Shown: positions 4,806-16,204, counted from the stretch's first letter. The stretch: DNA of 20,000 nt from an uncultured virus (IMG/VR IMGVR_UViG_3300037400_003073) (IMGVR_UViG_3300037400_003073); one strand, 5' to 3'. Program-made: numbers and translations. The notes: generated from the sequence alone by a model not told the origin.

Positions 4806-4875
4806 GTGGTTGCTTTTGGCAGCTTATGTCGCAAACATCGTCGCTTTCGTGTACTTTATCCTGGAGGAATCATGA
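4795..4875 (+). CDS. 26-aa hydrophobic peptide MTTEWLLLAAYVANIVAFVYFILEES
   Basis: GGAG RBS; stop overlaps next start (ATGA 4872-4875); single TM-like segment. Confidence 0.55.
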   Translation: MTTEWLLLAAYVANIVAFVYFILEES

Positions 4876-5378
4876 GTAGAACAAAATGCACGGTCAAAAG
4901 CGTAAAGGCTTCGCCGTTCATTACAACAGCAGGTCGCCCGTTTACATTCATTGGCGCCGCGCGCATTGCGATAGAACTGGCTCGAACCTATACGGACGGC
5001 AAAACCGAAAAAGCGTTGCTTACCATAAAAATTCGTCCCGGCTACAAAACAGACGGGGCAAGCACATTTTTTCCTATTTCGTTGCTTGTGCCGCAATGGG
5101 TTCCAGGTGACGACAATTACAACGCCGCCCCGGTTGCTCACGATGTGCTGTACATGCTCGGTGGTATAGTCGCGGGTGAACACGAGCCCGTGAAGTTGAG
5201 CCGCGAGGAAGTGGACGACATTTTGCGCGGAGTTTGGCGTTGCTGGGGAATGTCCCGCTTTGTTGCAGGGTGCGCAGACAAGGGCGTCGAGGTTTTCGCG
5301 GGCGGAAAAGATCACTGGGGCAATGACGGGTACGGCGTGCGGCAATACGCAAGCGCAACATGGACGGTGCTGGAATGA
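4872..5378 (+). CDS. DUF1353-family protein
   Basis: PGYKTDGAS...APVAHDVLY...SREEVDDILR motifs. GGAGG RBS favours ATG 4872 over the upstream GTG. Confidence 0.8.
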   Translation: MSRTKCTVKSVKASPFITTAGRPFTFIGAARIAIELARTYTDGKTEKALLTIKIRPGYKTDGASTFFPISLLVPQWVPGDDNYNAAPVAHDVLYMLGGIVAGEHEPVKLSREEVDDILRGVWRCWGMSRFVAGCADKGVEVFAGGKDHWGNDGYGVRQYASATWTVLE

Positions 5379-5794
5379 CCCTCGTGGAATATGCGGAAAA
5401 GTTTATCGGGCGTCCGTATGTTTGGGGCGGCGACGGCTCCGGTAAGTTTGGCGGCGGGTTCGATTGCTCGGGCCTGGTGCTCGAAGCTCTCAAGACCACG
5501 GGATATATCGGGAACGGCCAGGATTTGACGGCCCAGGGCTTGCACGACGCCTTGAAGAAATCCGGGTGGGTGGAAGTGCCTCTCGCGCTAATGACGGCAC
5601 AGGACGTGCTATTTTGGGGCAAGTCCGGGAAGGCTATCACGCACACGGCGATAGCTATTGGGCGCAGCCAGTACATAGAGGCGGGCGGCGGAGGTTCTAA
5701 ATGCACCTCCCCGGAGAAATCCACCGGCATGGTCCGGGTCCGTCCATTAGGTGCAAGAGAGGCGCCCGTCGCGATCTTGAGGGCGCCTGTGTAG
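5375..5794 (+). CDS. NlpC/P60 cysteine peptidase, probable endolysin
   Basis: GRPYVWGG...GFDCSGLV (catalytic Cys) and HTAIAIG (catalytic His); ATGA overlap with the upstream gene. Confidence 0.9.
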   Translation: MTLVEYAEKFIGRPYVWGGDGSGKFGGGFDCSGLVLEALKTTGYIGNGQDLTAQGLHDALKKSGWVEVPLALMTAQDVLFWGKSGKAITHTAIAIGRSQYIEAGGGGSKCTSPEKSTGMVRVRPLGAREAPVAILRAPV

Positions 5795-6115: not shown

Positions 6116-6382
6116 ATGGCTATCATACAAAGTAAAGAAAGACTTGCAGCGGTGAGAAAGCACTACCCGGATGACGAATTGTTGATTGCTGCATGCGATC
6201 ATCTTTTTAACTTGTTCGACAAGGAAGAAGACCTCAAGCGTGAGATCAACGTATGCAACGGTGCGTGGGTCCACTTTTTGCGCGGAAAATCACGGCAAGG
6301 GGTGCGGCTGGCGATCATCAATCGTGCCGCTCGAACGGCCATTCATGACTGTCTGCTGGGTCATGAATGTAAAAAGACGTAA
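6116..6382 (+). CDS. Hypothetical protein
   Basis: 88 aa ORF with AAGGA RBS downstream of the promoter. Confidence 0.65.
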   Translation: MAIIQSKERLAAVRKHYPDDELLIAACDHLFNLFDKEEDLKREINVCNGAWVHFLRGKSRQGVRLAIINRAARTAIHDCLLGHECKKT

Positions 6383-6404
6383 ACAAGATTGTGTTTTTTG
6401 AGCG

Positions 6405-6534
6405 AAAAACGGCAATTTCTGAAAATTCTTGAAAAAAATTTTGTTTTACCTATTGACGGGCGGTTTAGAAAATTCTATATATAGAAACGTGAGCGGGAAC
6501 GAACCCGCCACGAAAAACAAGAGGTAACAAAATG
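6405..6534 (+). promoter_or_regulatory. Repeated early promoter-leader unit, copy A
   Basis: AAAAACGGCAATTTCTGAAAA box (6405-6425), TTGACG(6453)-17 bp-TATATA(6476), leader ending CAAGAGGTAACAAAATG. Confidence 0.85.
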
Positions 6535-6834
6535 AAAATCATCAATTACACTGTCAATACTAGAGGTTTTGACGAAACTTTTAAAACGCCTTCCTTCGAA
6601 ACGAAATCCGATGCGAATGTAAAAATCCATGAAATTGAAGAAGATTTGTATGGTAAAAAGTATTACCTTAATCATGGTGAGTACGCACGCCCGGAATTTA
6701 AGGCGCAGCGATACAAAGACGGTTGGGGTATAAAGGTTTTGTATCATTACCTTACAGGGACTTGCCACGCGCCAAAAGACGGAAGGTTTACTTCTAAAGA
6801 TCGTTTTTTCGAAAGATTCTTCGATGAAGCATAA
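6532..6834 (+). CDS. Hypothetical early protein
   Basis: 100 aa ORF directly behind promoter copy A. Confidence 0.8.
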   Translation: MKIINYTVNTRGFDETFKTPSFETKSDANVKIHEIEEDLYGKKYYLNHGEYARPEFKAQRYKDGWGIKVLYHYLTGTCHAPKDGRFTSKDRFFERFFDEA

Positions 6835-6891
6835 GGGGGTCGGATCATGAAAACGCAAATTTCCACTCTTCGGCCCTAGACAAGCCCGCCC

Positions 6892-6921
6892 GCCGGGGGC
6901 GTTCCCCGGCACATTTTTTTT
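6892..6921 (+). terminator. Intrinsic terminator/attenuator
   Basis: GCCGGGG-GCGTT-CCCCGGC followed by ACA and T8. Confidence 0.65.
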
Positions 6922-6939
6922 ACTCAAGAGGTACTGAAT

Positions 6940-7197
6940 ATGTGCATGGATGATTACTGTTTTCGAAAAGTCGAGAACAAGGACCGTGAACGAAACGAAC
7001 GCCTTGACGCTGCCGTGTATGCCAGGAAAGGTGCGGAGATTGCCCGAACCTCCATACAAGAAGATACCGCCGAATACGTCATTTTGGCCGCATATCCGGG
7101 CGCGGACGATTTCGAGGTGCTGGGAGTAGGCACGAAGAAATTCGGCCTTGAATTGGGCCTTAAAATGGATCGTGACGTTAATCTTTTGTTTATGTAA
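6940..7197 (+). CDS. Hypothetical protein
   Basis: 85 aa ORF with CAAGAGGT RBS. Confidence 0.7.
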   Translation: MCMDDYCFRKVENKDRERNERLDAAVYARKGAEIARTSIQEDTAEYVILAAYPGADDFEVLGVGTKKFGLELGLKMDRDVNLLFM

Positions 7198-7206
7198 GGA
7201 ATTTAT

Positions 7207-7422
7207 ATGAAAGCAGTAATTACGAACAAAGAAGGCGGCTTCGTTATCAATTCCGATGGGTTCCAAGTCGAAATCCATCCCAATGGAAAAGGCGGCGTTG
7301 ATGTTTGCTTTTTCGGCAAAGTGCCAAGAAAACTGAAATACGTTGTCGAGAAGCACAAGAACTTGTTTGTAAATCCCGACATTGCGAGGACGCTAGTTTG
7401 TAACGAAATTTCTCGATTGTGA
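7207..7422 (+). CDS. Hypothetical protein
   Basis: 71 aa ORF with TAAGGA RBS. Confidence 0.7.
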   Translation: MKAVITNKEGGFVINSDGFQVEIHPNGKGGVDVCFFGKVPRKLKYVVEKHKNLFVNPDIARTLVCNEISRL

Positions 7423-7428
7423 GTATTT

Positions 7429-7573
7429 GGCGAAGGCGGGCTTGTTACCTCATCACCTCAATGTTTCCCGCCTTCGCCTTCTGCTTTTCCCGCGCCCGAT
7501 CCATTGCGCGGGTTTCTCCGCCCCGGAGTGGCTTCTTTGTTACCTTTTGGGCCGCTCCGGGGTCCTTTTTTTT
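7429..7573 (+). ncRNA. Candidate antisense RNA: three GC-rich stem-loops with anti-RBS loops, ending in a terminator
   Basis: Stems 7429-7440/7467-7478 (12 bp perfect), 7489-7495/7506-7512 (7 bp), 7521-7532/7551-7562 (12 bp, one G-U), then T8. Loops contain TTGTTACCTC and TTTGTTACCTTTTG. Confidence 0.6.
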
Positions 7574-7621
7574 ATGTTTCTTAAATGTAAATTTTATTTA
7601 ATAAAGTGGCGAAAATAGAAC

Positions 7622-7738
7622 AAAAACGGCAATTTCTGAAAAATATTTTTCAAAACTATTGACCGTGAACAAATAAATTTCTATATATAGAAATGTGAGA
7701 GCGATAAAGCCCCACAAAAAACAAGAGGTAACAAAATG
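7622..7738 (+). promoter_or_regulatory. Repeated early promoter-leader unit, copy B
   Basis: Same 21-bp box (7622-7642), TTGACC(7659)-17 bp-TATATA(7682), CAAGAGGTAACAAAATG. Confidence 0.85.
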
Positions 7739-7954
7739 AAAAGAATGACTTTCAAAACGATTTGCGAAAAGTTAGCCGCAAAATCCATCGTAAAGATTAG
7801 CACTACTTGGGGATGGCAGATTTGCAAGTCCGAAGAAATTAAGATTGATTCCAAAAAGAAAATTTTCGAAATTCCTGCATTTAGCAAATATTGGGGAGCG
7901 TATATGCACCCCGTGCGTTGCGGCGAAGTCATTTCTATTGAGAATGCAGCATAA
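7736..7954 (+). CDS. Hypothetical early protein
   Basis: 72 aa ORF directly behind promoter copy B. Confidence 0.75.
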   Translation: MKRMTFKTICEKLAAKSIVKISTTWGWQICKSEEIKIDSKKKIFEIPAFSKYWGAYMHPVRCGEVISIENAA

Positions 7955-7965
7955 GGGGGCGGATC

Positions 7966-8265
7966 ATGATTTCTTTGCATAACAGAATCGAACGCGATTT
8001 CCGCGAATGGCTCGCCAAGAACGGCGAAGCCGGGGCAACCTTCGGGGAGCAGGGCCGATATACGGTCATTACCCTTACCAAAGATGCAGAAGGTGATTTT
8101 GCCGCCTACCTCGAAGAATTTTGCAAGGCCGAAGCCTTCGACATTAAGAATTCGATTGGCCTTTATCGCTCCCCGGAATTTTTCTTCCGCGATGCAAAAA
8201 CCTTGATGTTCCAGCGTCATTTCACAACGGAACGTCCCACGAAACAACTTTGTGAATTTATTTAG
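7966..8265 (+). CDS. Hypothetical protein
   Basis: 99 aa ORF with AAGGGGG RBS. Confidence 0.7.
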   Translation: MISLHNRIERDFREWLAKNGEAGATFGEQGRYTVITLTKDAEGDFAAYLEEFCKAEAFDIKNSIGLYRSPEFFFRDAKTLMFQRHFTTERPTKQLCEFI

Positions 8266-8273
8266 GTGGAAGC

Positions 8274-8501
8274 ATGACACGCGAAGAATTTATCGAGTAC
8301 ACCAAAAGGGCCCTTGCGCCTACGCTGAAAAGGCGCAAGCTGAAAAACGGAAACCTCATGATTTTCTACATCAAGAATCAATACGTAGAAATCCCGCCGG
8401 AGGTTTGGAATTTCCAGCCGGAGGACACTTGCGAAGCTAAGCGTCAAGAACGCCTTGCAGGTGTTTTCTATGATCTTTTCACCGCAAAAAATAAGAGGTA
8501 A
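8274..8501 (+). CDS. Hypothetical protein
   Basis: 75 aa ORF tiling between neighbours. Confidence 0.65.
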   Translation: MTREEFIEYTKRALAPTLKRRKLKNGNLMIFYIKNQYVEIPPEVWNFQPEDTCEAKRQERLAGVFYDLFTAKNKR

Positions 8502-8505
8502 CAAA

Positions 8506-8802
8506 ATGAATACAAATGAACAAAAATTCGACTGCCTTTCAGTCACTCACGTCGAAGTTTCAGTTTTCAAGCAAGGGGCTTATCTTGGAAAGCTTCGCGG
8601 ATTTGCTACGATTGTCTTGAACGGCCAATTGCAGATTCGCGGCTTGATGATCATGGATTCTGAAAATGGCCTTTACGTCGGTTATCCGACCGATCCGTAT
8701 TGCCGCGAAGACTTCCAGCACATGGTTCTTCCGATGACGCGGGCACTTCGCGAACACATCGAAAATTGCGTTCTTGAAAAATACCAGCAGGCGATAGGCT
8801 GA
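8506..8802 (+). CDS. spoVG: SpoVG-family nucleic-acid-binding protein
   Basis: VTHVEV...KLRGFATIVLNGQLQIRGLMIMDSENGLYVGYP...PMTRALREHIENCVLEKY matches the SpoVG pattern; AAGAGGTAACAAAATG start. Confidence 0.85.
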   Translation: MNTNEQKFDCLSVTHVEVSVFKQGAYLGKLRGFATIVLNGQLQIRGLMIMDSENGLYVGYPTDPYCREDFQHMVLPMTRALREHIENCVLEKYQQAIG

Positions 8803-8804
8803 TT

Positions 8805-9638
8805 ATGGCGAAGTCTTCGACAAACGAAATAGCGAAAATTCTCGACCGCATACAAGGTTTCGATACTTACACGGTTATCCGTGACTTTTTCGAGATTTCC
8901 GCCATTTCGATTAGGAATAACGTAGATTATGGCAAGGAGCGCGATTCGTACGAACAACGTTATCTAGCCATAATCAAGAAGTACAGAAAGGAAGATTTGG
9001 CCGTATTTGTCGAAGCGTTGGGCGTGTTCATGGGATTGATTCAGAAGGCTATGGACGGCGATATTCCTTTTCGCGATTTCGCTGGCGAAATCTACATGGA
9101 TTCGGGCACCAGCAGCGGCAAGGCCGGTCAATTCTTCACGCCTTACCATGTGTCGCACCTCATGGCCGAAGTCAACTTCGACAAGGACAAACTAAAGGCC
9201 GAAATCGCGGCGGACCCGGATCACGTTATCACTATCGCCGAACCGACTTGCGGCGCGGGCGGGCTTATCGTCGCTGCAATCGACGTTCTCAAGGATGCGG
9301 GCATTAATTATGCTTGGAACGCCTTCGTGGATTGTGGCGACATTGACGCCCGATGCGTACACATGACGTATCTTACTTTGTCATTGCTTGGCGTCCCTGC
9401 CGTTGTGCGCCGTGGCGATGCGCTGGCCCTTGACTACTCCGAAACGTGGTACACGCCCGCGTATATCTTCGCTTGGCCGCACTTCAAGAGCCGTTTGCGT
9501 GGCGGCAAATATCCGTCAACCCCAACGGTGCAGGAAGCCCCGCAAGAGCCGCAGACGGCCCCGGTCGTTGAAGTTCCGCAGGTTGTCCCGGCTCCCATCC
9601 CGTTGATGGACGAGAACGGCCAACTTTCACTTTTTTAG
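8805..9638 (+). CDS. N6-adenine methyltransferase-like protein (HsdM/N6_Mtase-like) lacking the NPPY/F motif
   Basis: GQFFTPYHVS (motif X), EPTCGAGG (SAM-binding motif I), CGDID, GDAL; no NPPY/F; Pro-rich tail ending GQLSLF. Confidence 0.8.
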   Translation: MAKSSTNEIAKILDRIQGFDTYTVIRDFFEISAISIRNNVDYGKERDSYEQRYLAIIKKYRKEDLAVFVEALGVFMGLIQKAMDGDIPFRDFAGEIYMDSGTSSGKAGQFFTPYHVSHLMAEVNFDKDKLKAEIAADPDHVITIAEPTCGAGGLIVAAIDVLKDAGINYAWNAFVDCGDIDARCVHMTYLTLSLLGVPAVVRRGDALALDYSETWYTPAYIFAWPHFKSRLRGGKYPSTPTVQEAPQEPQTAPVVEVPQVVPAPIPLMDENGQLSLF

Positions 9639-11662: not shown

Positions 11663-12682
11663 TTATGCGAGGTTAACCGCGTCCGTCAAGTCTTCCTTGA
11701 GTACGTGAGAGTACACAGACAAAGTGATCATGGGCGTAGAGTGGCGTAAAAGCCGCTGGGTCGTGACGACGCTTGCGCCGCCCCTCAAGAGGTTGGACGC
11801 GAAAGAATGGCGGAAGCGGTGACAGTTTGCGCGGCCTTCGAACTTTATCCCGGCTGCTGCACATGCCTTCTTGATTTCCCGATTCGTCGCCGTATTCGTC
11901 ACCTTGTCTGTAAATATTGCCCCGGACCCCGGCACGGTTGCACCGTCCAAGAAGCGGCACATTTCCGCGCGTAATTTCGCCGATACGGGCACTTTGGCGA
12001 ACTTCCCGCCCTTACCCATTACCTTTATGAAATCGCCCTCGAAATCGCCCCAAACGGCCTTTTGCGCTTCGAAAAATCGGAACCCCGCGTAAGCCATGAT
12101 CGCAAAGCAGAAGCGAAACTCTTTGTCCTTTTCTGCATCAAGAATTTTTTCGACTTGCTCCGGGGGCCAAAAACTTTTTTCAGTCTTGCGTATCTTCGGG
12201 TACTTTATACGTGAAAAAGGATTTTCGGCCTTGAGATCCCACGTCTTGAAACACCATTTGAAGAAAAGGCGGCAGACCTTCAATTTTTGGGCGATGGTGT
12301 TCGGCTTCAATCCCTTGAATTTGCATATAAATTCATTCGCCAAGTCAAAAGACAAGTCCGTTATAGATTGCAATCCGTATTCGTCCGCAAAGCTAGCGAG
12401 CGGCGTCAATTGGCTATTGTAATTTCGAATTGTCAAGCCGTCGCCCTTCGTCATTTGCGTGTCATCGAGAAATGCAAAGAGGGCTTTTCGGAACGTCGGG
12501 GCCTTCGCCCAATCTTGCCCCATTAATTCGCCGTTTTTCTGCGTCAAGATGCGGTGGGCTTCGTTCCTGTTTTCCGTTTTGAGCGACTTGTAGCGCATGG
12601 ATTTCGTCTTCGGATCGTACCAGCGCAAGAACCAAGTATAAATTCCCTTCGACCTGTTTTTTTGCTCGATTTCGTATTTCAT
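11663..12682 (-). CDS. int: Tyrosine recombinase / phage integrase
   Basis: Catalytic set GFRFFE (R), GKGGK (K), HRFRHSFA (HxxR), LLRHS (H), SVYSH (Y); N-terminal arm-binding-like WFLRWYDPKTKSMRYKSLKT. Confidence 0.95.
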   Translation of the reverse strand: MKYEIEQKNRSKGIYTWFLRWYDPKTKSMRYKSLKTENRNEAHRILTQKNGELMGQDWAKAPTFRKALFAFLDDTQMTKGDGLTIRNYNSQLTPLASFADEYGLQSITDLSFDLANEFICKFKGLKPNTIAQKLKVCRLFFKWCFKTWDLKAENPFSRIKYPKIRKTEKSFWPPEQVEKILDAEKDKEFRFCFAIMAYAGFRFFEAQKAVWGDFEGDFIKVMGKGGKFAKVPVSAKLRAEMCRFLDGATVPGSGAIFTDKVTNTATNREIKKACAAAGIKFEGRANCHRFRHSFASNLLRGGASVVTTQRLLRHSTPMITLSVYSHVLKEDLTDAVNLA

Positions 12683-12941: not shown

Positions 12942-13048
12942 GTTGATTCCTCTAAGGTGGTTTCTTTATCCCAAATATACGTTTTTTGATTACAGATAGA
13001 GCTTAATTTGCTTGAAAAGTAGATACGTAAAATAAAAAACGAACATTA

Positions 13049-13112
13049 AAAACATAGATAAAAAAATAGAAAACATAGATAATTTATTTTTAAAACCGCT
13101 AAAAATAGCGGT
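13049..13112. repeat. Direct repeats and palindrome in the divergent AT-rich region upstream of int
   Basis: AAAACATAGATAA at 13049-13061 and 13070-13082 (21-bp period); ACCGCTA-AAAA-TAGCGGT at 13095-13112. Confidence 0.7.
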
Positions 13113-13139
13113 AAAAAGTATATCATAATGTAATTACAC

Positions 13140-13268
13140 AAGGGCGAAAACCGGGGGCGGCGGACCATCCAGCCGGAGCGGGCGGGATGGTAACAATTTG
13201 CCGCCGCTGGCGAAATGATCGCCGTCTACTCACATTTAGGGCTTTTTCGACGCACTTTTTTTGTTTTT
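13140..13268 (+). ncRNA. Candidate small structured RNA
   Basis: GC-rich island in AT-rich DNA after CATAAT (13124). Stems GCGGCGG/CCGCCGC (13157/13201), ACCATCC/GGATGGT (13164/13185), GGCGA/TCGCC (13209/13219), CGAAAA/TTTTCG; ends in a T-rich tract. Confidence 0.45.
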
Positions 13269-13309: not shown

Positions 13310-13437
13310 AAAAACGGCAATTTCTGAAAATTTTTGAAAAAAGTTAATCCGAACTATTGACCGACTAAAAAGAAAATTCTATATATAGAAACGTGAGAGC
13401 GACAAAGCCCCGCAAAAAAACAAGAGGTAACAAAATG
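13310..13437 (+). promoter_or_regulatory. Repeated early promoter-leader unit, copy C
   Basis: Same 21-bp box (13310-13330), TTGACC(13357)-17 bp-TATATA(13380), CAAGAGGTAACAAAATG. Confidence 0.85.
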
Positions 13438-14241
13438 GAATACAAAATCATCAAGAACGAAGAACATAACGGCTTGGAAATCTACTTCGACGCAAAGCCG
13501 ACCGAAGAAGTCCGTTCCGCACTCAAGGAAATCAAGTTCCGCTGGCATGGCGTGAAAAAGTGCTGGTATGGCCGCGCTGAACTTGCAACCGTTGAAAATA
13601 TTCTTGGCGGAAAGATTGTCGAAATGAAAACCGCCCGCGCCGAAATTTTGAATAAGTGCTTCTGCAAGACCGTTGACGCATACCTTGACACGGACGGCGG
13701 GTATAAGGGCAGCAATTCCCACGTAAGCGCGTATGACGTGCCGGACAAGGCTCGCGAGATTATCAAGGCTTGCGGCATCAAGGGCGTCACCGTATCGAAA
13801 AAGTGCGCTTCTATGTGCGTCGAAATCATCGTGAAAGTCCGCCTTTTGGATGGCGACGTGAAGCCGTTCGAGGAATGCCGCGAAGCCCTTGAGGACGTGA
13901 ACGCCAACGGCTATCTTCATGGCGGCTGGATCGTGGACCCGGACGACAATCACGAAGTTCATTTTTGCTATTGGAATGAATGGGACGGTGAAAAGCAGCG
14001 CCGCGCCGTGGCTCTTTGGGCTAGAAATAAGTATGAAACATACGTCAACGGCTACCCGTTCAGTATTACTCACGGCTGGCAGCTCAAGCCGGAAGAAGCC
14101 CCGATGTTCACGGAGCAGTTCTTCGACCGCTGGCAGGCCATGACGAAGATTATTTCCTCTTTTAATTGGAATCGGAGCAATAGCCAAGTAGATTACTTCG
14201 ATGTGAATTTCTACGAAGAATGGATTATCAAGGCCGCATAG
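13435..14241 (+). CDS. Polyvalent-protein-associated domain protein (LPD29-like C-terminus)
   Basis: N-terminal GLEIYFDAKPTEEVRSALKEIKFRWHGVKKCWY and C-terminal FNWNRSNSQVDYFDVNFY motifs, recalled from large polyvalent proteins of phages and conjugative elements. Confidence 0.65.
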   Translation: MEYKIIKNEEHNGLEIYFDAKPTEEVRSALKEIKFRWHGVKKCWYGRAELATVENILGGKIVEMKTARAEILNKCFCKTVDAYLDTDGGYKGSNSHVSAYDVPDKAREIIKACGIKGVTVSKKCASMCVEIIVKVRLLDGDVKPFEECREALEDVNANGYLHGGWIVDPDDNHEVHFCYWNEWDGEKQRRAVALWARNKYETYVNGYPFSITHGWQLKPEEAPMFTEQFFDRWQAMTKIISSFNWNRSNSQVDYFDVNFYEEWIIKAA

Positions 14242-14925: not shown

Positions 14926-15633
14926 ATGGCAAAAGAAAGAACCCCATTTGAAAAGACCGCAGCGGCTTTAAAAATCATGGGAAAGAAAATCGCTGCAAAG
15001 AAAACAGAACCGCGGCGTGAGCTGCAATGCGTTTGGATCGAAAATAAATCGGGCTATGCCGTGGCGACTGACGGGCACGTTTTGGCGGTCCTCAACCTTA
15101 ATTGGTGGGATCATCTTTCACGCGCTGAAATGCTCCCGGAATTGGCTTTCTATGCGGATATGCAGGAACTCAAGTACATCAACGGTTCGGCCTTGATTTC
15201 TGCCGACAAGAAAGATGAATTTGTAAAAAGTTTCGGTCACGGCATGAACGTAACGCCGGATTATGCTGAACTTGATATTGATACGAAAATCCCTTATCCC
15301 GATTGGAAAAGGCTTATTCCAAATGCTGAAAACTTGCAGCACGTCACGAAAACGGGGGCGACATTCTATCCCGGTCAAATCGGGGTCCTCGACCTTATCC
15401 CGCCCGCCTTCGACGATATGGTGACGGATTCAAGCACCATTGCAAACGGACTTTACGGCGAGCATGCAAACGGTTTTCATATTGCCATTTATCCGGGGCT
15501 TTTGCTGGCGGCGGTCCCATTAATTTATAAAGAAGATAAAGTTTCTATCGTTCCGTCAAAAGACGATGTTGAAGCATTCTTCAAGCCCGCCAAATCCGAA
15601 CAATTAGAAATGGAGTTTGATACAAATGAATAA
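14926..15633 (+). CDS. Protein with DNA polymerase III beta-clamp-like motifs
   Basis: AVATDGHVLA and YPDWKRLIP resemble the ATDGHRL and YPDYxRVIP motifs of the DnaN central domain; too short for a full DnaN. Confidence 0.6.
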   Translation: MAKERTPFEKTAAALKIMGKKIAAKKTEPRRELQCVWIENKSGYAVATDGHVLAVLNLNWWDHLSRAEMLPELAFYADMQELKYINGSALISADKKDEFVKSFGHGMNVTPDYAELDIDTKIPYPDWKRLIPNAENLQHVTKTGATFYPGQIGVLDLIPPAFDDMVTDSSTIANGLYGEHANGFHIAIYPGLLLAAVPLIYKEDKVSIVPSKDDVEAFFKPAKSEQLEMEFDTNE

Positions 15634-16204
15634 TACGTTGATGATTGACCTTGAAACCACGGGCAAGGCCCCCGGATGCTGCATCCTAACCATCGGTGCG
15701 GCTGGAATCGACAAGAACGGCCTAGAAGTCAATTTCTACGCCCGTATTCACCACGATAAAAGTAAGGACGAAGGCTTTGACGATGATCCCGAAACTCTCG
15801 CTTGGTGGCGAAAGCAGGACCCCGCGACACTCAAAGAAGCGTTCGCCGGGACGACCGAAGGACCGCAAGACGTTGTGAACGAATTTGTTGATTTTGTAAA
15901 CAAGAATTTCGACACGTCTGCAAAAGATTTCACCGTGTGGAGCAAGGGCAGCGATTTCGATTTCCCTATCTTGAAAGCCTACCTTGACGCTTACGATCTC
16001 GCGACACCGTGGCCGTTTTGGTTCCAACGCGATTACAGGACGCTTCAAGCCGTTTTTCCGTTCCTCAAGGCCGAAGAAAAGAACGGCGAAAAGCACAACG
16101 CCCTTGAGGACGCAAAAGCGCAAATGCGCGGCCTTGAGCACTTCATGAGCCTTGAAGCTGTCTTTAAGGAAAAGCCGAAGAATGTAAACAAAATCATGGT
16201 ATAG
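15626..16204 (+). CDS. DEDDh 3'-5' exonuclease (Rv2179c/DUF5051-like)
   Basis: MIDLETTG, WSKGSDFDFPIL, RDYRTL, HNALEDA. Confidence 0.9.
   Translation: MNNTLMIDLETTGKAPGCCILTIGAAGIDKNGLEVNFYARIHHDKSKDEGFDDDPETLAWWRKQDPATLKEAFAGTTEGPQDVVNEFVDFVNKNFDTSAKDFTVWSKGSDFDFPILKAYLDAYDLATPWPFWFQRDYRTLQAVFPFLKAEEKNGEKHNALEDAKAQMRGLEHFMSLEAVFKEKPKNVNKIMV

What the first reader, a model, noticed from the sequence alone, without database searches (positions are those of the whole stretch)
7429..7573. Candidate multi-target antisense RNA whose loops pair with the shared early-gene RBS
Seen: two 12-bp GC stems display TTGTTACCTC (7442-7451) and TTTGTTACCTTTTG (7536-7549). The latter can pair over 14 nt (one G-U) with CAAGAGGTAACAAA, which directly precedes the ATG at 6518, 7722 and 13421, and with TAAGAGGTAACAAA before spoVG (8492). 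GAGGTAAC also precedes 9649. The G-U pair in stem 3 and the T8 tail favour the + strand, so the RNA would be the 3' end of the promoter-A transcript. Established: P1 C4 and P4 CI RNAs control phage genes through loop pairing. Inference: a phage-encoded RNA that shuts off a regulon through a standardised RBS, giving negative feedback or repressor-free immunity. I do not recognise it as a described family.
Basis: partly seen in the sequence, partly recalled or inferred. Interest (0 to 1): 0.85.

Follow-up and report, generated by a model that had tools for sequence, protein, structure and literature searches.

The report
Phage hairpin RNA mirroring early RBS
A conserved three-hairpin RNA at the end of a rumen phage's first early operon carries loop sequences complementary to the identical ribosome-binding site that heads its early operons, so it probably turns down their translation, although nobody has yet shown that the RNA is made.

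Summary
Window 7429-7573 (+) folds into three GC-rich hairpins followed by T8 (MFE -70.2 kcal/mol, z -7.6). Its loops hold antisense copies of the ribosome-binding site (RBS) string AAGAGGTAACAAA, which precedes four early genes. There is no Rfam match. I found 8 distinct complete versions in rumen phage contigs. All keep the three hairpins and the T-run. All fold better on the + strand, and all three stems show compensatory changes. Loop 1 keeps two anti-RBS motifs: motif A is 11-12 of 12 Watson-Crick in 9/9 versions, and motif B is 11-12 of 12 in 6/9. Loop 3 is a 15-nt anti-RBS in 5/8 versions; all its internal differences are C-to-U changes that keep G.U pairs. In 3/8 versions it has diverged or degenerated. 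With accessibility included, the four cassette start regions rank 1-4 of 38 gene starts as targets. My best reading (about 0.5) is a 3'UTR-borne, terminator-sharing antisense RNA that gives feedback repression of early translation. It works like P1 c4, RNAIII or LhrC but belongs to none of those families. Expression is not shown. The RBS is invariant (21/21 cassettes), so loop/RBS covariation cannot be tested. The idea of repressor-free immunity is unsupported.

The parts
7429..7478 (+). Hairpin 1: a 12-bp GC stem (7429-7440 with 7467-7478) and a 26-nt loop. The loop carries anti-RBS motif A (TTGTTACCTC, 7442-7451) and motif B (ACCTCAATGTTT, 7455-7466).
   Evidence: Fold. Covariation at 3 of 12 pairs, with a G.U pair that exists only on the + strand. 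Motif conservation. The covariance model R1 hits one site per genome.
7489..7512 (+). Hairpin 2: a 7-bp GC stem and a 10-nt loop (CCGATCCATT). In relatives L155 and L010 the loop is TCCCTCCTATG, which contains a CCUCC core.
   Evidence: Pair 3-28 occurs as CG, UA and AU, and 97.4% of cells are paired.
7520..7563 (+). Hairpin 3, the terminator hairpin: a 13-15-bp stem, with TTTGTTACCTTTTG (7536-7549) in the loop. That sequence is antisense to CAAGAGGTAACAAA with one G.U pair.
7564..7573 (+). U-tract (TCC plus T8) completing an intrinsic terminator.
   Evidence: A T-run of 6-8 follows stem 3 in 8 of 8 versions.
7207..7422 (+). Upstream gene (71 aa, no known family). Its stop codon lies 6 nt before hairpin 1, so the element is its 3' UTR.
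   Evidence: All 9 related metagenome loci that have sequence after this gene go on into the element.
6518..6534 (+). Predicted target 1: the RBS CAAGAGGTAACAAA plus ATG of gene 6532-6834, the first gene after promoter cassette 1.
   Evidence: total -12.9 kcal/mol, rank 2 of 38.
7722..7738 (+). Predicted target 2: the same RBS plus ATG of gene 7736-7954, after promoter cassette 2.
   Evidence: -13.7 kcal/mol, rank 1 of 38. The RBS is predicted to be unpaired.
8492..8508 (+). Predicted target 3: TAAGAGGTAACAAA plus ATG of the SpoVG homologue.
   Evidence: -12.3 kcal/mol, rank 4 of 38.
13421..13437 (+). Predicted target 4: the same RBS plus ATG of gene 13435-14241, after promoter cassette 3.
   Evidence: -12.8 kcal/mol, rank 3 of 38.
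6425..6515 (+). Promoter cassette 1: TTGACG, a 17-nt spacer, TATATA inside the palindrome TTCTATATATAGAA, then a 5' UTR hairpin. It is the likely source of the transcript that ends in the element.
   Evidence: Repeat family D1; sequence; cassette table. That it acts as a promoter is inferred.
7631..7721 (+). Promoter cassette 2, directly downstream of the element.
13329..13419 (+). Promoter cassette 3.

Best explanation
The element is the structured 3' end of the first early transcription unit of a temperate rumen phage. That unit starts at promoter cassette 1 and contains genes 6532-7422. Hairpin 3 plus the U-tract ends the transcript. Hairpins 1 and 3, and hairpin 2 in some relatives, display single-stranded pyrimidine-rich loops. 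The loops pair with the invariant, unstructured leader AAAACAAGAGGUAACAAAAUG that heads three promoter cassettes and the spoVG gene. Pairing covers the Shine-Dalgarno sequence (SD, the part of the RBS that the ribosome recognises) and reaches to within 0-2 nt of the start codon. It would therefore block 30S binding, and it might also invite RNase cleavage. The RNA is made together with the early mRNAs and has stable hairpins at both ends, so it should outlast them. It would accumulate and give delayed negative feedback on translation of the first gene of each early operon, shutting off the early phase and buffering leaky expression. It could act in trans, either as the whole mRNA or as a processed 3'UTR fragment of about 145 nt. 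It could also act in cis on its own leader or on read-through transcripts. What the data show: the structure, its conservation, its strand preference, the terminator anatomy, the specificity of the complementarity, and the predicted accessibility of loops and targets. What is inferred: that the RNA is made, that it accumulates, that it pairs in vivo, that pairing represses, and when it does so.
For: Structure. Three hairpins, MFE z -7.6. I found 8 distinct complete versions, and 9 for hairpin 1, at about 70-88% DNA identity in the neighbourhood. All 8 fold into three hairpins plus a T-run. Compensatory changes occur in all three stems. Stem 1 has 3 of 12 pairs changed on both sides, with 93.5% of cells paired against 86.3% when shuffled (0/500 shuffles as high). 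Stem 2 pair 3-28 occurs as CG, UA and AU. Stem 3 has 5 of 13 pairs changed on both sides. Sliding the partner columns removes or greatly weakens the signal: none remains for stem 1, a little for stem 2, and for stem 3 the -1 slide still shows 3 pairs.

Strand. The + strand fold is more stable than the minus strand fold in 8/8 versions, by 3.8-14.1 kcal/mol. Stem 1 pair 5-58 is G.U in 5 of 9 versions, which would be an A-C mismatch on the other strand. The T-run follows stem 3 in 8/8. Every neighbouring gene is on the + strand.

Loops. Motif A is 11-12 of 12 Watson-Crick to the leader in 9/9 versions, and motif B is 11-12 of 12 in 6/9. Loop 1 beats 500 of 500 composition-preserving shuffles in 8/8 versions. 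Loop 3 pairs over 15 nt (12-14 WC, 1-2 G.U, 0-1 terminal mismatch) in 5/8. In those five, every internal difference from the perfect antisense is a C-to-U change opposite G, and these fall at three different C positions. That pattern is what RNA-RNA pairing on the + strand tolerates.

Specificity. Loop 3's four best + strand duplex sites in the 20-kb window are the four cassette RBSs. With opening energies included, the four cassette start regions rank 1-4 of 38 gene starts (-13.7 to -12.3 kcal/mol, next best -7.9; the 1st percentile of 296 random windows is -10.2).

Target. AAGAGGTAACAA is invariant in 21/21 distinct cassettes, while the 5' hairpin, the spacer and the downstream genes vary. 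The RBS is predicted to be unpaired.

Placement. There is one copy per genome in two phage records that are 97% and 94% complete, always directly after the same gene.

The RNA must start upstream of stem 1. Covarying pairs include stem position 3, so the full 5' arm belongs to the RNA. This fits a 3'UTR origin better than a start at a -10-like box that ends only 2 nt before the stem (inference).
Against: No expression evidence exists. The only RNA run that holds related sequence is contig-level and does not cover the hairpins. The RBS never varies, so the decisive loop/RBS covariation test is impossible with the sequences found. Loop 3 complementarity is absent in L155 and L010 (TTCTCCTTCTTT; no better than shuffles) and degraded in L174. 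Some loop 1 changes break pairing: CCGC in L158, a CC insertion in L154 and L159, and motif B at only 8-9 of 12 in the window, L151 and L153. Stem covariation rests on 6-9 related sequences and few independent events, and the tool warns that related sequences can beat the shuffles without any structure. A terminator-like hairpin at 6892-6919 lies between cassette 1 and the element, so how much transcription reaches the element is unknown. The regulator would be made from the same promoter type as its targets, so repression needs an untested difference in stability.
Confidence: 0.5

Rival explanations
1. The element is only a terminator and RNA-stability module. The three GC hairpins stop transcription before promoter cassette 2 and protect the 3' end of the mRNA. 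On this view the loop similarity to the RBS has no function, for example as a relic of an inverted cassette fragment.
For: Hairpin 3 plus the T-run is a textbook intrinsic terminator in 8/8 versions. The element sits exactly between two transcription units. Loop 3 is free to diverge in 3/8 versions. Other GC hairpins with T-rich loops exist in relatives.
Against: This view does not explain why loop 1 keeps two antisense motifs at 11-12 of 12 in relatives whose stems, spacers and hairpin 2 have diverged. It does not explain why the loop 3 differences are all wobble-preserving, or why the complementarity beats composition-matched shuffles. Loops of 26-38 nt are not what termination needs. The other terminator-like hairpin in the window (6892-6910) has a 3-nt loop with no anti-RBS sequence.
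Confidence: 0.2
2. The motif is read by a protein. One version is an RNA-binding protein that recognises both the leader and, in some way, the loops. Candidates would be the phage SpoVG homologue or a host factor binding U-rich or CU-rich loops. The other version is a double-stranded-DNA-binding regulator that recognises GGTAACAA in either orientation at the cassettes and in the element.
For: The 12-nt core is invariant in 21/21 cassettes, which is more than an SD needs. As double-stranded DNA the loop motifs are the same sequence inverted. The phage encodes a SpoVG homologue behind the same RBS. That SpoVG proteins bind nucleic acids is recalled, not tested here.
Against: The motifs sit in the loops of hairpins with covarying stems, which points to single-stranded display. 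An RNA-binding protein would see opposite sequences in the leader and the loops. The C-to-T changes at three positions of the loop 3 copy would each alter a DNA motif, yet all keep RNA pairing.
Confidence: 0.15
3. The element is a generic anti-SD RNA. On this view the loops imitate the 3' end of 16S rRNA (ACCUC, and CCUCC in some relatives) and soak up SD sequences broadly, on host mRNAs or late phage mRNAs, rather than a dedicated early regulon.
For: Loop 1 always carries ACCUC, or a close variant of it, twice. L155 and L010 carry CCCUCCU in loop 2 and UCUCCUUCUU in loop 3. GAGGTAA-type RBSs precede further genes at 6940, 9649, 9961 and 11015. The similarity to the 16S 3' end is recalled, not tested.
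Against: The complementarity extends well beyond the SD into cassette-specific flanks (AAAACAAG and UAACAAAA). Non-cassette gene starts score far worse. The loop 3 versions with C-to-U changes lose the CCUC core yet keep pairing to the cassette.
Confidence: 0.1
4. The element is a minus-strand transcript that displays RBS-like loops as a decoy for ribosomes or for a translational regulator.
For: The minus strand also folds into three hairpins (z -4.8). In L010 a T-run follows stem 1 on the minus strand.
Against: The minus strand fold is less stable in 8/8 versions. G.U pairs become A-C mismatches on that strand. No T-run follows on the minus strand in the other versions. The loop 3 variants would read AAAAGG, AAAAGA or GAAGTA in place of GAGG, which are poor SD mimics. 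No minus-strand gene or promoter was found nearby.
Confidence: 0.04

Closest known systems
c4 antisense RNA of phages P1 and P7
   Same: It is a phage-encoded structured RNA made from the same transcription unit as its target. Its loop sequences pair around a ribosome-binding site to block translation (review PMC12197685, passages read).
   Different: There is no sequence or structure match: the Rfam scan returned nothing at gathering score and no C4 row at E<=10. c4 lies upstream of a single target operon (ant/icd) and serves immunity. Here the RNA lies at the 3' end of an operon, shares its terminator, and its predicted targets are four identical leaders on separate operons.
CI RNA of satellite phage P4
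   Same: It is a small phage RNA cut from the transcript that it controls, and it acts through short complementary sites repeated in the leader. This is recalled; I read no paper on it.
   Different: P4 CI causes premature transcription termination and confers immunity. Here the target is the RBS itself, and no immunity role is supported. There was no Rfam hit.
3' domain of Staphylococcus aureus RNAIII
   Same: Several GC hairpins, including the terminator hairpin, display C-rich loops that pair with the SD regions of several mRNAs through loop-loop or loop-strand contacts. The source is PMC2837412, of which I saw only the search listing and the start of the abstract; the details are recalled.
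   Different: RNAIII is a chromosomal quorum-sensing effector with its own promoter, and its targets share only a generic SD. Here the targets share an identical leader of about 20 nt, and the RNA is a phage 3' UTR. There was no Rfam hit.
Listeria LhrC and Mycobacterium 6C small RNAs
   Same: They carry redundant CU-rich or C-rich sites in loops, including the terminator loop, and bind AG-rich RBS regions without needing a chaperone (LhrC abstract read; 6C listing). The redundancy matches the two or three sites seen here.
   Different: They are host stress sRNAs with short UCCC-type seeds. Here the complementarity runs 10-15 nt and is cassette-specific. There was no Rfam hit.
PeSL promoter-terminator cassettes of T4-like phages
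   Same: They are repeated composite early-promoter and stem-loop units that head different genes and act as points of modular exchange (abstract of PMC4122927). Here 21 distinct cassettes head different genes.
   Different: PeSLs are described as recombination and regulatory motifs, not as targets of an antisense RNA. This family has sigma-70-type TTGAC/TATATA boxes, an operator-like palindrome and an invariant RBS. No homology was tested.

Membership tests
Rfam families of phage or Gram-positive antisense RNAs (C4, IsrK/P4 CI-like, RNAIII, LhrC, 6C; the list of names is recalled) | A match to the family covariance model at or above its gathering score. | tested here: not met
   cmscan of the whole window against 4227 families gave 0 matches at gathering score. 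In 7300-7750 at E<=10 there were only 10 weak, unrelated rows (mir-483, HgcG and others, all far below gathering score), and none was from these families.
Intrinsic (Rho-independent) terminator | A GC-rich hairpin followed directly by a U-tract on the transcribed strand. | tested here: met
   Stem 3 (13-15 bp) is followed within 1-3 nt by T6-T8 in 8 of 8 versions.
Conserved structured RNA | Helices maintained by compensatory substitutions across homologues. | tested here: met
   Pairs changed on both sides: stem 1 has 3 of 12, stem 2 has 2 of 7, stem 3 has 5 of 13. The covariation score exceeded the shuffles in 500/500, 497/500 and 500/500 trials. Slid controls fall to zero for stem 1, to low values for stem 2, and to about half for stem 3 at -1. 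Caveat: only 6-9 related sequences.
3'UTR-derived base-pairing sRNA | The RNA lies in the 3' UTR of a coding gene and shares that gene's terminator. | tested here: met
   Hairpin 1 starts 6 nt after the stop codon of gene 7207-7422, and the same arrangement holds in all 9 related metagenome loci with downstream sequence.
3'UTR-derived base-pairing sRNA | A discrete stable RNA species accumulates, by processing or from an internal promoter. | not testable with these tools
   The one RNA run is kept as contigs only and does not cover the hairpins.
Trans-acting antisense regulator of translation | An accessible seed complementary to an accessible site that overlaps the SD or start codon of the targets. 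| tested here: met
   Loops are open in the MFE and centroid structures. The RBS is unpaired in the leader folds. The cassette start regions rank 1-4 of 38 with opening energies included.
Trans-acting antisense regulator of translation | Co-variation of seed and target across homologues. | tested here: inconclusive
   The target core is invariant in 21/21 cassettes, so there is nothing to co-vary with. The only supporting pattern is that the loop 3 substitutions are all wobble-preserving.
Trans-acting antisense regulator of translation | Repression of target translation that depends on the pairing. | not testable with these tools
   This needs a reporter assay or toeprinting.
PeSL-like mobile promoter cassette (for the repeated target units) | A repeated early promoter plus stem-loop unit that flanks variable genes. 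| tested here: met
   There are three copies in the window and 21 distinct cassettes in the window and its relatives, heading different genes. Actual recombination at the cassettes is not shown: the apparent 6508-to-7718 joint is explained by cassette variants.

The most novel reading that the evidence does not exclude
A temperate phage has standardised the leader and RBS of its early operons into one invariant cassette, and it encodes an RNA in the 3' UTR of the first early operon with two or three redundant loop sites against that cassette. A single terminator-sharing RNA would then set the translation of a whole early regulon. This would be a phage-internal 'one antisense, many operons' switch. 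It would also explain why the cassette RBS is frozen while everything around it shuffles.
Probability: 0.45. Interest if true: 0.75.

Novelty: new variant of a known kind. Interest (0 to 1): 0.6.

Why it matters
Base-pairing RNAs that hide an RBS are well known, and phages P1 and P4 use them. What has not been described, in the review passages I read or in the hits of my three literature searches, is a phage RNA that shares the terminator of an early operon and addresses several operons through an identical, portable promoter-leader-RBS cassette. If real, it would give a simple post-transcriptional timer for the early-to-middle switch in an uncultured rumen phage lineage. It would also link regulatory logic to the modular shuffling cassettes of phage genomes. 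Finally, it would offer a compact, orthogonal repressor/target pair (an RNA of about 145 nt and a leader of about 20 nt) for synthetic biology. It is also a reminder that 'terminator' hairpins with large conserved loops in phage intergenic regions deserve a second look.

Tried and rejected
Rfam: nothing at gathering score; only weak noise at E<=10.

tRNA/tmRNA: none.

INPHARED phages: no near or distant DNA match to 6380-8500.

Whole genome of the window: not held.

Pattern TTCTATATATAGAAA in viral contigs: too unspecific. It gave 121 loci, and only the three known relatives were useful.

Single-protein locus searches found one relative each. A second protein alignment (A6) again found only the same three viral contigs.

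The protein search of genome contigs found nothing.

L161-L165 are unrelated response regulators and were dropped.

Sequencing runs: 24 runs listed, mostly bovine or goat gut. One RNA run had a 0.06 share of the sampled words. I laid X24, X2, X3 and X4. The RNA contigs do not cover the hairpins, so the data say nothing either way about expression. The 'skips 1209' joint (6508 to 7718) in X3 is at a contig start and is explained by a cassette 2 that carries a cassette-1-type 5' hairpin, as in L151. I do not read it as a deletion of the element.

The GC-rich region 13130-13260 carries a sense GGTAACAA, but that motif is not conserved in L182, L004 or L021, so I treat it as a coincidence.

Whole-loop duplex scans without accessibility gave noisy top hits for the long loop 1, so I replaced them with the accessibility-corrected ranking.

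Coding potential: open frames cross the element in all versions, but the peptides and frames are not conserved and the lengths differ by non-multiples of 3 (138-155 nt).

An internal promoter (TTGTAA, 17-nt spacer, TGT plus GAGTAT, ending 2 nt before stem 1) was considered. It is weak, confounded by the coding sequence, absent in L010, and would start transcription inside the covarying stem, so I rejected it as the main source.

Host: the 46-kb relative is binned in a 'Bacteroidales' MAG. However, SD motifs precede 22 of 38 gene starts against a 10.8% background. I treat the bin label as weak evidence.

Full report
**What is in the sequence**

Window 7429-7573 lies between the stop codon of a 71-codon gene (7207-7422) and the second copy of a repeated promoter cassette. 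Folded as + strand RNA, 7420-7580 gives three hairpins with open loops. These are 7429-7478 (12-bp stem, 26-nt loop), 7489-7512 (7-bp stem) and 7520-7563 (13-15 bp), followed by T8. The MFE is -70.2 kcal/mol against -44.7 for shuffles (z -7.6, 0/200 as good). The minus strand folds less well (-63.1 kcal/mol).

AAGAGGTAACAAA occurs exactly four times on the + strand (6519, 7723, 8493, 13422), each time directly before an ATG. It occurs twice in antisense, inside loop 1 (2 mismatches) and loop 3 (1 mismatch). That is 6 matches against 0.75 expected, and no shuffle of 200 reached 6.

**Context**

The window is part of a temperate phage. It holds tail and lysis genes: a DUF1353/tail-chaperone-like gene at 4806-5378 and an NlpC/P60 gene at 5360-5794. 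Small early genes follow on the + strand, including a SpoVG homologue (8506-8802), an N6-methyltransferase (8805-9638), a minus-strand integrase (11663-12682) and an exonuclease (15617-16204). No genome is held for the window. Runs that hold the sequence are mostly bovine or goat gut metagenomes.

A unit of about 110 nt is repeated three times, at 6425-6531, 7631-7735 and 13329-13434. It consists of TTGAC, a 17-nt spacer, TATATA embedded in the palindrome TTCTATATATAGAA, a small 5' hairpin, an A-rich spacer, and CAAGAGGTAACAAAATG. The spoVG gene carries only the 3' part of the unit. The element therefore sits at the 3' end of the unit started by cassette 1, immediately before cassette 2.

**Relatives**

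Nothing similar is in the INPHARED phage collection or in Rfam.

Exact-pattern and protein-anchored scans found relatives at roughly 70-88% DNA identity:
- three IMG/VR contigs;
- ten related metagenome loci, found through the upstream gene. Five further hits were unrelated response regulators and were dropped;
- one 46-kb contig in a goat-reticulum MAG.

Of the ten metagenome loci, nine have sequence after the gene, and all nine continue into the element. Seven are complete and two are cut by the contig end. After removing duplicates there are 8 distinct complete elements and a ninth complete hairpin 1.

A covariance model of hairpin 1 finds exactly one + strand site in each of two phage records that are 97% and 94% complete, and one in the 3.5-Mb MAG.

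**Is it a structured RNA, and on which strand?**

All 8 versions fold into three hairpins plus a T-run. In all 8 the + strand is more stable than the minus strand, by 3.8-14.1 kcal/mol.

On hairpin-wise alignments, the stems behave as follows.
- Stem 1 has 3 of 12 pairs changed on both sides (UA/CG, CG/AU, GC/UA). It also has a pair that is G.U in 5 of 9 sequences, which is possible only on the + strand. Cells paired: 93.5% against 86.3% in shuffles (0/500 as high). No covariation remains when the partners are slid.
- Stem 2 keeps 97.4% of cells paired although its sequence is largely replaced. Pair 3-28 occurs as CG, UA and AU.
- Stem 3 has 5 of 13 pairs changed on both sides. One lineage has a bulge that shifts the register, which lowers the count.

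The sample is small and the sequences are related, so this is moderate evidence, not proof.

Open reading frames cross the element because it lacks stop codons. Their peptides and frames are not conserved, and the lengths (138-155 nt) differ by non-multiples of three.

**Are the loops really anti-RBS?**

Compared with the perfect antisense of the leader:
- motif A of loop 1 (UUUUGUUACCUC) is 11-12 of 12 Watson-Crick in 9/9 versions;
- motif B (ACCUCUUGUUUU) is 11-12 of 12 in 6/9 and 8-9 of 12 in the window, L151 and L153.

Loop 1 beats all 500 composition-preserving shuffles in 8/8 versions.

Loop 3 pairs over 15 nt in 5/8 versions (12-14 WC, 1-2 G.U, at most one terminal mismatch). In those five, every internal difference from the perfect antisense is a C-to-U change opposite a G, and the changes fall at three different C positions. 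This substitution pattern preserves RNA pairing on the + strand. On the other strand it would spoil an SD mimic.

In L155 and L010 loop 3 is instead UUCUCCUUCUUU, which scores no better than shuffles against the cassette. In L174 it is a degraded copy (10 WC, 3 G.U, 2 mismatches).

Some loop 1 changes also break pairs: CCGC in L158, and a CC insertion in L154 and L159.

Each element nevertheless retains at least two strong sites, a redundancy also described for LhrC (abstract).

**Target side**

Across the window and its relatives I collected 21 distinct cassettes heading different genes. AAGAGGTAACAA is invariant in 21/21. The preceding C is present in 19/21 and the following AAATG in 19/21. 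Meanwhile the 5' hairpin covaries and the A-spacer changes length.

The RBS is predicted to be single-stranded in all three leaders of the window.

A duplex scan of the 20-kb + strand with loop 3 puts the four cassette RBSs first (-18.9, -18.8, -18.8 and -16.2 kcal/mol; next -16.1). With opening energies for both partners included, the four cassette start regions rank 1-4 of 38 putative gene starts (-13.7 to -12.3; the fifth is -7.9; the 1st percentile of 296 random windows is -10.2).

**Mechanism I consider most likely (about 0.5)**

The element is a 3'UTR-borne RNA that shares the operon's terminator. Its loops pair with the shared leader across the SD and up to the start codon, blocking initiation on the first gene of each early operon. 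It is co-made with those mRNAs but capped by stable hairpins, so it would give delayed negative feedback. Whether it acts in trans or in cis is open.

The covarying base of stem 1 means the RNA must begin upstream of the stem. That fits a read-in from the gene better than the weak -10-like box that ends 2 nt before the stem.

Expression, accumulation, pairing in vivo and repression are all inferred. The only RNA run available is contig-level and does not cover the hairpins.

**Rivals**

- Plain terminator or stabiliser (0.2). This explains hairpin 3 and the position of the element, but not the conserved, wobble-tolerant antisense loops.
- Protein-read motif, as RNA or as inverted double-stranded DNA (0.15). 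This fits the frozen cassette and the presence of a phage SpoVG. It fits poorly with loop display on covarying stems and with the C-to-U pattern.
- Generic anti-SD sponge (0.1). This fits the doubled ACCUC and the CCUCC and UCUCCUU loops of L155 and L010. But the complementarity reaches into cassette-specific flanks, and other gene starts score poorly.
- Minus-strand decoy (0.04). The fold energies, the G.U pairs and the T-run all argue against it.

I find no support for it. All cassettes share an operator-like palindrome over the -10 box. One relative encodes an HTH_3 protein next to cassette 1. The RNA would be silent whenever its own cassette promoter is repressed.

**Comparison with known systems**

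In function, the closest described systems are these:
- P1/P7 c4 RNA, which pairs through its loops around an RBS and is made from the same transcript (review passages);
- the RNAIII 3' domain;
- the LhrC and 6C small RNAs, which have redundant C/CU-rich loops, including the terminator loop, directed against SD regions (listing; LhrC abstract);
- P4 CI RNA (recalled only).

The element is not a member of any of these families by the Rfam models.

The repeated target cassettes resemble the PeSL promoter-terminator cassettes of T4-like phages in being repeated early-promoter and stem-loop units that head variable genes (abstract).

**Verdict**

The element is a real, conserved, + strand structured RNA with specific and redundant complementarity to a standardised early RBS. 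The regulatory interpretation is plausible and well motivated but untested, and the immunity part is unsupported. I rate it a new variant of a known kind, with interest 0.6.

Noticed in passing
window 6425-6531, 7631-7735, 13329-13434: A promoter, 5'-hairpin and RBS cassette is repeated three times. It has a perfect 14-bp palindrome, TTCTATATATAGAA, over the -10 box, which looks like an operator. Across relatives there are 21 distinct cassettes heading different genes, with AAGAGGTAACAA invariant in all 21 and the 5' hairpin covarying. They resemble PeSL-type shuffling units.
   Followed up: partly
window 13130-13262: A GC-rich structured stretch (z about -3 on either strand) lies behind a conserved box, TATATCATAATGTAATTACACAAG. 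It sits between integrase-side direct repeats and cassette 3. Its beginning is conserved in three relatives, and its GGTAACAA is not. It may be a second non-coding RNA or an att/ori feature.
   Followed up: partly
window 13042-13082: Tandem 20-nt direct repeats (AACATTAAAAACATAGATAA and AAAATAGAAAACATAGATAA) lie next to the integrase region. They could be arm-type binding sites.
   Followed up: no
window 8506-8802: A phage-encoded SpoVG homologue (Pfam E 1.2e-14; NCBIfam hit below the curated cut-off) is led by the same RBS string, with T in place of C at the first position.
   Followed up: partly
window 6892-6919: A terminator-like hairpin (GCCGGGG GCGTT CCCCGGC, then T7 after 4 nt) lies between the first and second genes of the unit that ends in the element. 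The next gene has a related RBS, CAAGAGGTAC.
   Followed up: no
G001:C1 32314-32347; G002:C1, flipped coordinates 29820-29862: These are homologous GC hairpins with covarying stems. Their minus-strand loops are CU-rich (TTGTTTCTCCTT and ...CTCCTCTCCTTCTT) and are followed by T-rich runs. Their + strand loops are the best duplex partners of loop 3 of the same phage's element. It is unclear whether this is chance or a loop-loop partner.
   Followed up: partly
L174/L182 (contig JAFSJF010000065.1) and the window's gene starts: A 46-kb relative is binned in a MAG labelled Bacteroidales. However, 22 of 38 gene starts in the window have GGAG, GAGG or AGGA upstream (background 10.8%), and the promoters are of the TTGAC/TATA type. 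The true host is therefore more likely an SD-using bacterium.
   Followed up: partly
window 9649, 9961, 11015, 6940, 14326: Further genes use GAGGTAA-type or CAAGAGG-type RBSs (GCGAGGTAACT, ATGAGGTAAAT, ATGAGGTAATG, CAAGAGGTACT, CAAGAGGATAA). They would be weaker partners of loop 1 motif A.
   Followed up: partly
window 13435-14241: The 268-aa first gene of cassette 3 is strongly conserved among relatives (88-90% identity). Its only lead is similarity by protein-language-model features to clusters that partly carry LPD29 (scores 0.82-0.92), which is a lead only.
   Followed up: partly
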